The notes under the pieces are model-generated. The model did not search any database. It was not told where the DNA came from and saw only the letters and a list, made by a program, of their open reading frames with translations. From Escherichia coli (GTDB lineage Bacteria; Pseudomonadota; Gammaproteobacteria; Enterobacterales; Enterobacteriaceae), in NCBI RefSeq assembly GCF_011045215.1, contig NZ_CP049203.1: a stretch of DNA of 4,727 bases. The stretch is one strand, 5' to 3'. The translations under genes and the position numbers were made by a program. Below, one piece after another: positions 4,204-4,727 of this stretch (the first letter of the stretch is position 1; each line of letters opens with the position of its first letter).

Positions 4204-4683
4204 CTATTTATCACCATTCGCAGCTACCCGGTCACTACCCCCATTAAGAACAAAAATTAGATCTATTGATAATAATCCTTCTGACTTTATTCTTTCAGGA
4301 TAAAAAAAAGATGAGTCACCATCCACCACTTCTTGTAGTTTCTTGTGTAATTTTTGACAGTCAGGTAATGAATTTTCTGCAAAATCATTAAAAATAACAA
4401 CATCTGGAGGAAGCAGATCTTTTACGTTTGTATTCCCTGTAGTAATTGAGATTTTACAAACTCCTCGCCCATTAAAATCCACCAACTTCTTTTGAAGCCT
4501 ATCTCTATATATACCCAATTCACGCTGAATAACGTCCGTGTATGAAGAGTCAACGATAGAATTATCGTACTTTATATCATTAAGATATTCATATATTTCT
4601 TTTACTGAATTTGTCTCTCGCTCCCAATTAGGAGCAACAAATATGCTTACGGAAGCATAAATACTTCCCGAAAACAATATCAT
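4204..4683 (-). CDS. Small exported (periplasmic) protein, candidate immunity protein for the lysozyme-type toxin
   Basis: 159-aa ORF, AT-rich like the toxin gene, same orientation, and immediately downstream if the molecule is circular. The N-terminus MILFSGSIYASVSIFVA is hydrophobic and signal-like. The mature part is hydrophilic with two Cys. I recognise no family. There is no SD before the ATG at 4683; see the mini-ORF and T9 tract upstream. Confidence 0.7.
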   Translation of the reverse strand: MILFSGSIYASVSIFVAPNWERETNSVKEIYEYLNDIKYDNSIVDSSYTDVIQRELGIYRDRLQKKLVDFNGRGVCKISITTGNTNVKDLLPPDVVIFNDFAENSLPDCQKLHKKLQEVVDGDSSFFYPERIKSEGLLSIDLIFVLNGGSDRVAANGDK

Positions 4684-4709
4684 TGCACAAAAAAAAATCT
4701 TTTCAACAT
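4680..4709 (-). other. 9-codon upstream mini-ORF (MLKRFFFVQ*) with SD and a T9 tract; its stop overlaps the ATG at 4683 (caATGA)
   Basis: The minus strand reads ttGGGGGAGat ATG TTG AAA AGA TTT TTT TTT GTG CAA TGA. The T9 run corresponds to plus-strand A9 at 4689-4697. One extra T would fuse MLKRFFFCA in frame to MILFSGS..., giving a canonical signal peptide n-region. Confidence 0.4.
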
Positions 4710-4727
4710 ATCTCCCCCAATAATATT

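What the first reader, a model, noticed from the sequence alone, without database searches (positions are those of the whole stretch)
4680..4718. T9 homopolymer and an SD-equipped 9-codon mini-ORF split a would-be signal peptide at the 5' end of the immunity candidate
Seen: the ATG at 4683 has no Shine-Dalgarno. A strong one (GGGGGAG) precedes an ATG at 4709 that opens MLKRFFFVQ*. This mini-ORF is out of frame with the main ORF and ends in TGA overlapping the main ATG (caATGA). The mini-ORF contains T9 (plus-strand A9, 4689-4697). With T10 the product would be MLKRFFFCAMILFSGSIYASVSIFVA..., a textbook signal peptide with a basic n-region and an h-region. Established: A/T runs of 9 or more support transcriptional slippage in enterobacteria (for example mxiE in Shigella). 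ATGA overlaps support translational coupling. Homopolymers are also classic sites of sequencing error. Inference: there are three options. (a) An assembly indel. (b) Coupled reinitiation. (c) Slippage-dependent production of an exported isoform, which would tune immunity level.
Basis: partly seen in the sequence, partly recalled or inferred. Interest (0 to 1): 0.58.

Follow-up and report, generated by a model that had tools for sequence, protein, structure and literature searches.

The report
Slippery T9 frameshift in immunity-gene leader
A run of nine T's breaks the export signal of a probable bacteriocin-immunity gene on a small E. coli plasmid; it is the usual, reproducible state of a length-variable tract (T9 common, T10 rare), so the full exported protein can come only from slippage during copying or reading, or from rare T10 plasmid copies.

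Summary
T9 lies at 4697-4689 (minus strand). An ATG at 4709 with a Shine-Dalgarno (SD) site opens MLKRFFFVQ*, and its TGA overlaps the SD-less ATG at 4683.

The "mini-ORF" is not a separate element. It is the orphaned 5' end of the ancestral gene. All 10 diverged homologues (30-56% identity) carry one uninterrupted signal peptide and two invariant cysteines.

T9 is not a one-off assembly error. The T9-type protein is indexed in 337 blocks of public assemblies, and 3 of 3 hits in an unbiased metagenome scan are T9. In two plasmid backgrounds, T10 and T9 loci are identical over 2.4-3.3 kb except for the tract. The tract is therefore hypermutable, or heterogeneous within samples.

Most likely mechanism (inferred, not shown): T9 plasmids make a reduced amount of full-length exported protein, mainly by +1 U transcriptional slippage as in Shigella mxiE. 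Minor routes are -1 ribosomal slippage and T10 plasmid copies. Reinitiation at ATGA would give a leaderless protein, probably not exported.

A tolerated OFF state or pseudogene is a serious rival, because the lysis gene downstream is already degenerate.

This is a new member of a known kind. Interest is moderate.

The parts
4711..4717 (-). Shine-Dalgarno sequence GGGGGAG serving the ancestral start codon
   Evidence: Read. Pairing with the anti-SD is -8.4 kcal/mol, against -0.9 for the region before ATG 4683. G-rich SDs occupy the same place in the homologues.
4680..4709 (-). 9-codon 'mini-ORF' MLKRFFFVQ*. It is the orphaned 5' end of the ancestral immunity ORF (n-region and start of the h-region of the signal peptide), cut off by the T9 frameshift.
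   Evidence: Homologues start MIKRLLFLYVALLFLSEGAYA / MIRFVIAAFISILTIKGAFA in one continuous frame. The T10 alleles P0006 and P0007 read MLKRFFFCAMILFSGSIYA.
4689..4697 (-). T9 homopolymer (A9 on the plus strand), a length-variable, slippage-prone tract. T10 or T7 would restore the frame.
   Evidence: T9 in 26 loci and T10 in 7 loci. T9 and T10 loci are identical otherwise. Contigs from at least 29 samples break exactly at the tract.
4680..4683 (-). ATGA overlap: the stop codon of the mini-ORF overlaps the first in-frame ATG of the long ORF, a possible termination-reinitiation site
   Evidence: No SD precedes this ATG. The Met is lineage-specific, being an internal residue of the h-region in the T10 form, and is absent from the homologues.
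4204..4683 (-). 159-aa ORF: the last 10 residues of the signal peptide (MILFSGSIYA, predicted cleavage after codon 4656-4654), then the mature domain of the immunity candidate
   Evidence: conserved V.V.IAP..W..TDS and two invariant Cys. AF2 model with pLDDT 83, in which the strand VSIFV directly after the cleavage site belongs to the fold. No Pfam or NCBIfam family matches.
3..39 (-). Intergenic 14-bp hairpin (GATGTATTTCATCT / GGATGAAATACATC) between the bacteriocin stop codon (61-59) and the immunity SD
   Evidence: fold. The same hairpin sequence sits at the same place in p1303_5. Its function is unknown; no T-tail terminator was found.
59..808 (-). 249-aa bacteriocin candidate with a T4-lysozyme-like C-terminal domain, upstream in the same operon across the circular junction
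   Evidence: PF00959 at 1.6e-09. T4 lysozyme and a pesticin-lysozyme chimera are the PDB hits. 89% identical to the p1303_5 protein. Intact in every locus fetched.
852..867 (-). LexA (SOS) box CTGTATATAAACACAG upstream of the bacteriocin gene
   Evidence: Perfect palindromic match. It lies downstream of a TTGACA at 898-893.
4063..4217 (-). Degenerate remnant of a colicin-type lysis gene downstream of the immunity ORF
   Evidence: It aligns with the intact lysis genes of p1303_5 and the Klebsiella plasmid. Those encode ...[21 protein letters not shown]. The window has no lipobox Cys, and the similarity is split over two frames.

Best explanation
The window is a small ColE1-type E. coli plasmid. 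It carries an SOS-controlled operon: a lysozyme-like bacteriocin, then a periplasmic immunity candidate, then a decayed lysis gene.

The T9 run is the real and prevalent allele of a hypermutable poly-T tract. The tract sits in codons 5-8 of the immunity gene's signal peptide (K-R-F-F-F-C, ancestrally T10). The 'mini-ORF' is the stranded 5' end of that gene.

From T9 DNA, standard decoding gives a 9-residue peptide. Termination-reinitiation at AUGA could then give, at best, a leaderless 159-aa protein. That protein lacks the basic n-region and half of the hydrophobic core, so it is unlikely to be exported.

The full-length exported protein MLKRFFFCAMILFSGSIYA|SV... can arise in three ways. (i) mRNAs that gain one U (or lose two) when RNA polymerase slips on the A9 template. 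I consider this the main route, by analogy with the T9 of Shigella mxiE and the A9 of spa33. (ii) A -1 ribosomal slip on U_UUU_UUU, which gives the identical protein. (iii) T10 plasmid copies generated by replication slippage.

The net effect would be a lowered level of immunity protein that is not zero. This is tolerable because the operon no longer has a working lysis gene.

Shown: the anatomy, the family-wide signal peptide, the dominance of T9, and recurrent T9/T10 change. Inferred: slippage, its efficiency, export, and the immunity function itself.
For: - **Anatomy.** The layout and SD strengths are as described.
- **Family-wide signal peptide.** All 10 diverged family representatives and both plasmid homologues have one continuous signal peptide with K/R at positions 2-4, a hydrophobic core and an AxA-type site, plus two invariant Cys. 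The strand after the cleavage site is part of the predicted fold, so it cannot act as a substitute signal.
- **Periplasmic precedent.** A lysozyme-type bacteriocin acts in the periplasm, and its known immunity protein Pim is periplasmic (PMC3390615).
- **T9 is reproducible.** The short-form protein is indexed in 337 blocks, and other short-form variants sit on further contigs. All 26 such loci are T9, including 3 of 3 unbiased metagenome hits.
- **T10 alleles exist.** They lie on about 10 contigs. They differ from T9 loci by the tract alone: L013 vs L008 over 3248 bp, L015 vs L005 over 2365 bp, L022 vs L018 over 3342 bp, each with 0 mismatches and 1 gap. The plasmid backgrounds themselves differ by 14 mismatches and 3 gaps over 3 kb (L022 vs L003).
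- **Contig breaks.** Contigs from at least 29 samples end exactly in ...AGA-T9 and restart at GTGCAATG. This fits mixed tract lengths in the reads.
- **Literature on slippage.** Selection against A/T runs in bacterial coding regions sets in at about 9 nt, and mxiE needs one extra templated-run U to fuse two ORFs (PMC1088944). The A9 of spa33 gives under 14% slipped RNA (PMC6925163).
- **Bacteriocin intact.** The bacteriocin gene is intact in every locus.
Against: - No RNA, protein or phenotype data exist for this plasmid.
- The out-of-frame arrangement is not conserved beyond this near-identical lineage. p1303_5-type and Klebsiella-type homologues have in-frame genes with no run. It therefore looks like a recent accident rather than an evolved programme.
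- The lineage is too uniform to test for purifying selection on the ORF. Three of the four variable sites inside it change the protein; the fourth was not translated. The counts have no statistical power, but they fit relaxed constraint just as well.
- The lysis gene has already decayed, so the module may simply be degenerating.
- The many T9 assemblies may be dominated by a few oversampled clones.
- That the gene is an immunity gene rests on synteny and predicted export only.
Confidence: 0.45

Rival explanations
1. OFF state or pseudogene. T9 is a genuine loss-of-function frameshift of the immunity gene and it is tolerated. Possible reasons are that little bacteriocin is released without a lysis protein, or that the hosts lack the receptor. 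T10 copies are the ancestral or revertant ON form. The tract then behaves as a neutral or phase-variable homopolymer, and slippage products are incidental.
For: - The lysis gene downstream is degenerate.
- Bacteriocins without a lysis protein stay more than 90% inside producers (PMC3390615).
- The tract and the ATGA are lineage-specific.
- The two most divergent contexts, L017 and the 32-kb contig L021, carry T10. This fits T10 being ancestral.
- A non-coding T-run in the same plasmids (938-931) also varies: T7, T8, T9 and T11.
- The protein variants of the short form seen are amino-acid changes.
Against: - T9 dominates in three different plasmid backgrounds while the toxin gene stays intact everywhere.
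- No second disabling mutation was seen in the fetched ORFs.
- A U9 tract in an E. coli-type host is expected to give some frame-restored mRNA whether selected for or not. A complete null is therefore unlikely.
Confidence: 0.3
2. Coupled reinitiation gives the functional product. Ribosomes that finish the SD-driven mini-ORF restart at the overlapping AUG (caAUGA). The resulting 159-aa protein, starting MILFSGSIYA, is the working immunity protein. It would either be exported through its residual hydrophobic N-terminus or act in the cytoplasm.
For: - The ATGA overlap and the strong SD on the upstream ORF.
- A predicted stem pairs 4727-4718 with 4685-4676 and would hide the main AUG until the mini-ORF is translated. 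The z-score is -3.6 for the 128-nt region.
- The gene order toxin-immunity-lysis resembles nuclease colicins, whose immunity proteins act in the cytoplasm (own knowledge).
Against: - The restart product has no basic residue and only about 9 residues before the conserved cleavage site, against 19-21 in homologues.
- The next segment, VSIFV, is a strand of the folded domain.
- Every homologue keeps a full signal peptide and two invariant Cys, which points to a periplasmic, disulfide-bonded protein.
- The AU-rich stem may be chance in AT-rich sequence.
Confidence: 0.12
3. -1 ribosomal frameshifting. While decoding the mini-ORF, the two tRNA-Phe slip back one base on U_UUU_UUU and continue as UGU GCA AUG. 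This gives the same MLKRFFFCAM... protein without any change in the mRNA.
For: In the mini-ORF frame the tract is a perfect X_XXY_YYZ heptamer, and the -1 frame is the long ORF's frame (direct reading). An SD-like GGGGGAG lies upstream.
Against: - The SD-like element is about 16 nt from the heptamer. That is beyond the 10-14 nt that stimulates -1 shifts in dnaX (own knowledge).
- The nearest downstream hairpin starts about 13 nt after the tract rather than 5-9 nt.
- For the comparable T9 of mxiE, the mechanism reported was transcriptional (PMC1088944).
Confidence: 0.08
4. Sequencing or assembly artefact. The real plasmids are all T10, and T9 is a systematic under-call of the homopolymer.
For: Homopolymers are error-prone. 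Some contigs break at the tract. T10 is called in a minority of assemblies of otherwise identical plasmids.
Against: - T9 recurs in assemblies from NCBI, ENA, JGI and Logan made by different groups and assemblers. These include 3 of 3 hits in a pattern scan that allowed run lengths of 7-12.
- The same assemblies resolve other runs at different lengths, T7/T8/T9/T11 at 938-931, and T10 can be called.
- A consistent one-base under-call in hundreds of short-read consensus sequences is not expected.
Confidence: 0.05

Closest known systems
Shigella flexneri mxiE (transcriptional slippage on a T run fuses mxiEa and mxiEb)
   Same: A short SD-led 5' ORF and a long 3' ORF overlap at a run of T's. One extra non-templated U in the mRNA puts them in frame and gives the full-length protein (PMC1088944; PMC7762205). 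The host polymerase is the same E. coli type. The run length of 9 is from my own memory of Penno et al. 2005.
   Different: In mxiE, slippage was shown experimentally and the arrangement is the normal form of the gene. Here nothing has been measured. In-frame T10 alleles coexist. Diverged homologues lack the run. The tract lies inside a signal peptide, so the choice is between an exported protein and no export, not between a short and a long regulator.
Phase-variable 'contingency' genes with homopolymer tracts in the 5' coding region (slipped-strand mispairing; e.g. poly-G/poly-C tracts of Neisseria, Haemophilus, Campylobacter; own knowledge)
   Same: Tract length is the only difference between otherwise identical sequences, and it toggles the reading frame. 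The tract sits at the very start of the ORF.
   Different: This is a poly-T of 9-10 on a multicopy ColE1-type plasmid in a mismatch-repair-proficient enteric host. The out-of-frame length is about 97% of assemblies. No within-strain switching rate is known.
Pesticin / Pim of Yersinia pestis
   Same: A bacteriocin whose killing domain is a T4-lysozyme homologue, paired with an immunity protein that works in the periplasm (PMC3390615). The window's toxin matches PF00959 and T4 lysozyme.
   Different: The immunity candidate here matches no described family or solved structure by sequence, and its fold is at best weakly TolA/TonB-CTD-like. Relatives of this operon carry a lysis gene, whereas the pesticin operon does not. 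Neither protein of this family has been tested.
Frameshifted genes rescued by polymerase infidelity at poly(A) tracts (Buchnera/Blochmannia, Tamas et al. 2008; E. coli strain pairs in Baranov et al. 2005)
   Same: A genomic one-base frameshift inside an A/T run remains expressed because a fraction of transcripts regains the frame (PMC1088944, Figure 5 legend).
   Different: Those cases are chromosomal genes in genomes under drift. This is a conflict-system gene on a mobile multicopy plasmid, where dosage of an exported protective protein is the issue.
Colicin Z (pColZ)
   Same: A small E. coli plasmid encoding a roughly 26-kDa peptidoglycan-degrading colicin (PMC6668396).

Membership tests
Programmed transcriptional slippage (mxiE / dnaX-Thermus / IS-element type) | Run of at least 8-9 A or T in the sense strand at the junction of two overlapping ORFs | tested here: met
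   T9 at 4697-4689 joins the mini-ORF frame and the 159-aa ORF frame.
Programmed transcriptional slippage (mxiE / dnaX-Thermus / IS-element type) | The fused product corresponds to the full-length protein of homologues | tested here: met
   The +1 product MLKRFFFCAMILFSGSIYA|SV... aligns with the continuous signal peptides of 10 homologues.
Programmed transcriptional slippage (mxiE / dnaX-Thermus / IS-element type) | The out-of-frame arrangement is conserved among homologues, which would be evidence of selection for it | tested here: not met
   It is conserved only within a near-identical plasmid lineage. The p1303_5-type and Klebsiella-type genes are in frame and have no run. T10 alleles occur in the same lineage.
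Programmed transcriptional slippage (mxiE / dnaX-Thermus / IS-element type) | Heterogeneous mRNA run lengths exceeding those of the DNA | not testable with these tools
   This needs cDNA versus DNA amplicon sequencing.
Phase-variable contingency locus (slipped-strand mispairing) | Simple repeat in the promoter or 5' coding region whose length sets ON/OFF | tested here: met
   T10 and T7 are in frame. T8, T9 and T11 are out of frame.
Phase-variable contingency locus (slipped-strand mispairing) | Tract-length polymorphism among otherwise identical isolates, arising repeatedly | tested here: met
   T9 and T10 pairs show 0 mismatches over 2.4-3.3 kb in two distinct backgrounds.
Phase-variable contingency locus (slipped-strand mispairing) | Reversible high-frequency switching within a strain | tested here: inconclusive
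   The only hint is indirect: contigs from at least 29 samples break exactly at the tract. Read-level data are not available.
Translational coupling by termination-reinitiation | Stop of a well-translated upstream ORF overlaps or abuts the downstream start codon | tested here: met
   caATGA at 4685-4680. The upstream SD pairs at -8.4 kcal/mol.
Translational coupling by termination-reinitiation | The reinitiated product is the functional protein | tested here: inconclusive
   The product lacks the n-region and half of the h-region that every homologue keeps.
-1 programmed ribosomal frameshift | X_XXY_YYZ slippery heptamer in the zero frame, with the -1 frame open | tested here: met
   U_UUU_UUU lies in the mini-ORF frame, and the -1 frame is the long ORF.
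-1 programmed ribosomal frameshift | Stimulatory element at the proper distance: a downstream structure 5-9 nt away, or an upstream SD-like sequence 10-14 nt away | tested here: not met
   The nearest hairpin starts about 13 nt downstream, and the SD-like element is about 16 nt upstream. The distance rules are from my own knowledge.
Sequencing/assembly homopolymer artefact | The length call is not reproducible across independent data sets | tested here: not met
   T9 in 26 of 26 short-form or pattern-found loci from NCBI, ENA, JGI and Logan, and in 337 indexed blocks.
Sec-type signal peptide (exported immunity protein) | Basic n-region, hydrophobic h-region, small-residue -3/-1 cleavage site, all in one ORF | tested here: not met
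   These features are met only in the T10 reading and in the homologues. In the window the n-region and the rest lie in different frames.
Pesticin/Pim-like lysozyme bacteriocin with periplasmic immunity | Toxin with a T4-lysozyme-type domain | tested here: met
   PF00959 at 1.6e-09, and T4 lysozyme hits in the PDB.
Pesticin/Pim-like lysozyme bacteriocin with periplasmic immunity | The immunity protein is homologous to Pim, or is shown to neutralise the toxin | not tested
   There is no family or PDB sequence match for the immunity candidate. No Pim sequence was at hand to compare directly. The function is inferred from conserved synteny.

The most novel reading that the evidence does not exclude
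The T9/T10 tract is a selected dosage or bet-hedging switch on a multicopy bacteriocin plasmid. The out-of-frame T9 state would be favoured because it holds the exported immunity protein at a low level set by slippage. Replication slippage would keep a heteroplasmic minority of T10 copies that can be amplified when neighbours release toxin. This would be the first colicin-type immunity gene governed by homopolymer slippage, in an uncharacterised lysozyme-bacteriocin/immunity family.
Probability: 0.15. Interest if true: 0.65.

Novelty: new member of a known kind. Interest (0 to 1): 0.42.

Why it matters
If T9 plasmids still protect their hosts, this would be a natural E. coli case where expression of an exported protective protein depends on polymerase slippage, or on plasmid heteroplasmy, at a nine-base run. 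That is a simple and testable model of how mobile elements tolerate or exploit homopolymer frameshifts.

In practice, annotation pipelines currently call a 159-aa 'hypothetical protein' that starts inside the signal peptide. This hides the fact that the family is exported and that the operon is a lysozyme-type bacteriocin system that I did not find described in the literature searched.

If T9 is simply OFF, the plasmid shows stepwise decay of a bacteriocin module: lysis gene first, then immunity, with the toxin still intact.

Tried and rejected
- **Megablast.** The module found nothing in PLSDB or in RefSeq complete E. coli genomes. Only the ColE1 backbone matches.
- **Pattern scan of genome contigs.** It found nothing.
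- **Colicin Z.** Considered and rejected, because its immunity gene has the opposite orientation and encodes a 4-TM protein.
- **Immunity candidate by sequence.** Pfam, NCBIfam and PDB sequence searches found nothing.
- **Family-wide locus search.** It returned only 2 loci, so I could not test whether homopolymer tracts recur in other family members' leaders.
- **Promoter/terminator scan.** The scan around the immunity start was at chance level, 5 found against 3.5 expected. One promoter-like hit has the tract in its spacer, but it would start transcription downstream of ATG 4683 and was dismissed.
- **dN/dS.** Diversity in the lineage is too low, with four variable sites in the ORF.
- **The window's own protein P0002.** It is not on record in the contig index, so the sequencing platform of this record is unknown.
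- **In-ORF T8 run as a control.** The run at 4309-4302 is T8 in all loci, but the loci were chosen by exact protein sequence, so this is not a fair control.
- **Literature.** Searches found no description of this bacteriocin family.
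Full report
**What is in the sequence**

- On the minus strand the window reads ...ATTGGGGGAGATATGTTGAAAAGATTTTTTTTTGTGCAATGATATTG....
- GGGGGAG lies at 4717-4711, ATG at 4709-4707 and T9 at 4697-4689.
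- The reading ATG TTG AAA AGA TTT TTT TTT GTG CAA TGA gives MLKRFFFVQ*.
- Its TGA (4682-4680) overlaps the ATG at 4683-4681, which opens the 159-aa ORF 4683..4204.
- Predicted pairing with the 16S rRNA 3' end is -8.4 kcal/mol before ATG 4709 and -0.9 kcal/mol before ATG 4683.
- This is the only A/T run of 9 or more in the window. Shuffles give such a run in 3.8% (whole window) or 7.2% (AT-rich module) of trials.
- T10 or T7 fuse the frames. T8 and T11 end after 26-27 codons.

**Context**

- The window is a ColE1-type plasmid: it has Rop, and only its backbone matches thousands of plasmids. It is circular, so the genes on the minus strand run across the window ends.
- A perfect LexA box, CTGTATATAAACACAG, lies at 867-852.
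- It precedes a 249-aa protein (808..59) with a T4-lysozyme-type domain (PF00959 at 1.6e-09; T4 lysozyme hits).
- Next come a 14-bp intergenic hairpin at 39-3, the SD and ATG at 4709, and the ORF discussed here.
- The same order, lysozyme-like protein then this ORF then a colicin-type lysis gene, is found in E. coli p1303_5-type plasmids and in 3.9-kb Klebsiella plasmids.
- In the window the lysis gene is only a remnant without a lipobox cysteine.
- This is not colicin Z, whose immunity gene is divergent and encodes a 4-TM protein (PMC6668396).
- I found no paper describing this family.
- 'Immunity' is therefore an inference from synteny and predicted location.

**The mini-ORF is the stranded start of the gene**

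- The p1303_5 homologue (56% identical) begins MIKRLLFLYVALLFLSEGAYA|SVTVFIAP. The Klebsiella one (38%) begins MIRFVIAAFISILTIKGAFA|DINVFIAP. Each is a single frame behind a G-rich SD.
- An exhaustive search of 1.84 billion representative proteins found only 14 relatives.
- The 10 full-length ones all have a basic n-region, a hydrophobic core and an AxA-type site. The conserved V.V.IAP..W..TDS follows, and there are two invariant cysteines.
- The AlphaFold model (pLDDT 83) places VSIFV, directly after the cleavage site, as a strand of the fold. The segment after MILFSGSIYA therefore cannot serve as a replacement signal.
- The family is thus an exported, probably disulfide-bonded periplasmic protein. 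That is where a muramidase bacteriocin has to be neutralised, as for Pim and pesticin (PMC3390615).
- In the window this signal peptide is split. MLKRFFF lies in one frame and (C)AMILFSGSIYA in another.

**Is T9 an assembly error?**

- The 90%-identity cluster of the short form has 11 protein variants. The commonest (P0008, one residue different from the window's protein) sits on 208 contigs and is indexed in 337 blocks of NCBI, ENA, JGI and Logan assemblies.
- I counted the run directly. All 26 loci fetched through short-form proteins or by pattern are T9. This includes 3 of 3 hits of a metagenome pattern scan that allowed run lengths of 7-12. All 7 loci fetched through the long forms are T10.
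- A one-off indel in this record is therefore excluded.
- A systematic under-call in hundreds of independent short-read assemblies is unlikely. The same assemblies resolve a non-coding run at 938-931 as T7, T8, T9 or T11.

**The tract changes recurrently**

- T10 and T9 loci are identical apart from the run. L013 vs L008 match over 3248 bp, L015 vs L005 over 2365 bp, L022 vs L018 over 3342 bp and L016 vs L008 over 1849 bp. Each pair shows 0 mismatches and 1 gap.
- These pairs belong to two plasmid backgrounds with different upstream flanks and marker SNPs. L022 vs L003 shows 14 mismatches and 3 gaps over 3 kb.
- So the length has changed independently at least twice, faster than point substitutions accumulate.
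- Contigs from at least 29 samples are linearised exactly at the run. They end ...AAAAGA-T9 and start GTGCAATG. An assembler would do this if the reads disagree there. This is suggestive only.
- The two most divergent contexts (L017, and L021 on a 32-kb contig) are T10. This fits T10 being ancestral, as do the in-frame homologues.

**How it most likely works**

- From U9 mRNA, ribosomes loaded at the strong SD make a 9-residue peptide and stop on the UGA of AUGA.
- Some may reinitiate at AUG 4683. That product has no basic residue and only about 9 residues ahead of the cleavage site, against 19-21 in relatives. I expect poor or no export.
- There are three routes to the full-length protein.
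  - (i) One extra U, or two fewer, added by RNA polymerase on the A9 template. Runs of 9 A/T are the length at which bacterial genomes start to avoid them in coding regions, and mxiE needs exactly such a +1 U event (PMC1088944). The A9 in spa33 gives under 14% slipped RNA (PMC6925163).
  - (ii) A -1 ribosomal slip on U_UUU_UUU. This yields the identical protein but lacks well-placed stimulators.
  - (iii) T10 plasmid copies.
- I rank (i) first and estimate that T9 plasmids make a reduced but non-zero amount of exported protein.
- None of this has been measured.

**The main rival**

- T9 may simply be OFF. The module has already lost its lysis gene.
- Lysis-less bacteriocins stay largely inside producers, so the need for immunity may be small.
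- The lineage is too uniform for a selection test.
- The run and the internal Met are lineage-specific, so nothing shows that the arrangement was selected.
- I give this rival 0.3.
- The others are reinitiation giving the functional product (0.12), -1 frameshifting as the main route (0.08) and artefact (0.05).

**Comparison with known systems and verdict**

- Mechanistically the closest case is mxiE. Evolutionarily the locus looks more like a frameshift at a hypermutable homopolymer that is either rescued by polymerase infidelity or acts as a crude phase switch.
- It meets the anatomical criteria of programmed transcriptional slippage. It fails the criterion of conservation among homologues. 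I therefore do not file it as an evolved recoding site.
- It is a new member of known kinds of phenomena, sitting in an uncharacterised lysozyme-bacteriocin/immunity family.
- Interest is moderate (0.42). It is a clean lead that is cheap to test, not a surprise to specialists.

Noticed in passing
window 4063-4217 (minus strand): Downstream of the immunity ORF lies only a degenerate remnant of a colicin-type lysis gene. It has no lipobox Cys, and its similarity to ...[18 protein letters not shown] is split over two frames. The p1303_5 and Klebsiella relatives keep intact lysis genes.
   Followed up: partly
window 931-938 (T8 on the minus strand), about 35 bp upstream of the TTGACA at 898-893: A second homopolymer, non-coding and upstream of the bacteriocin promoter region, is length-polymorphic among the related loci: T7 in 3, T8 in most, T9 in 2 and T11 in 1. 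It might affect promoter strength. It also shows that the assemblies resolve run lengths.
   Followed up: partly
window 3-39 (minus strand), across the toxin-immunity intergenic region: A 14-bp hairpin (GATGTATTTCATCT/GGATGAAATACATC) without a T-tail, conserved in sequence and position in p1303_5. It may be an attenuator or an mRNA-stability or processing element between toxin and immunity.
   Followed up: no
window 4718-4727 with 4676-4685 (minus-strand RNA): A predicted 10-bp AU-rich stem pairs the sequence just 5' of the SD with caAUGAuauu. It encloses the SD, the upstream AUG, the T-run and the main AUG. The z-score is -3.6 for the 128-nt region. It could make the main AUG dependent on translation of the mini-ORF, or it could be chance in AT-rich RNA.
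   Followed up: no
window 59-808 versus 4204-4683; L001: Divergence is asymmetric. The toxin is 89% identical to the p1303_5 toxin, but the immunity candidate is only 56% identical. Against the Klebsiella plasmid the figures are 64% and 38%. The second gene evolves much faster than the toxin it is supposed to neutralise.
   Followed up: no
[not shown]
   Followed up: partly
window about 760-800 (minus strand), toxin residues 8-16: The Gly/Ser/His-rich N-terminus of the toxin contains NQGPGWHDH. From memory this resembles the DGSGW TolB box of group A colicins. It is conserved in the p1303_5 and Klebsiella toxins.
   Followed up: no
P0030: A 1954-aa protein in the representative library matches the immunity-candidate domain in 7 separate stretches. 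This is a giant protein with repeated copies of the domain.
   Followed up: no
L007, L009, L010; protein P0013: Some NCBI contigs (GCA_900479135.1, GCA_900479125.1) carry two copies of the module or a 281-aa fusion of immunity N-terminus and toxin C-terminus, with an N at the junction. These are probably scaffolding artefacts or plasmid multimers with deletions.
   Followed up: no
L038: An 876-bp contig labelled Actinoallomurus acaciae encodes a 62%-identical fragment of this enterobacterial protein. Contamination of that assembly is likely.
   Followed up: no
L021 (GCA_033992015.1, 32-kb contig): The toxin-immunity module (T10 allele, R-to-C variant) also occurs on a larger plasmid contig next to PemK/MazE-type and StbA/ParM-type genes. 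The module has therefore moved between replicons.
   Followed up: no
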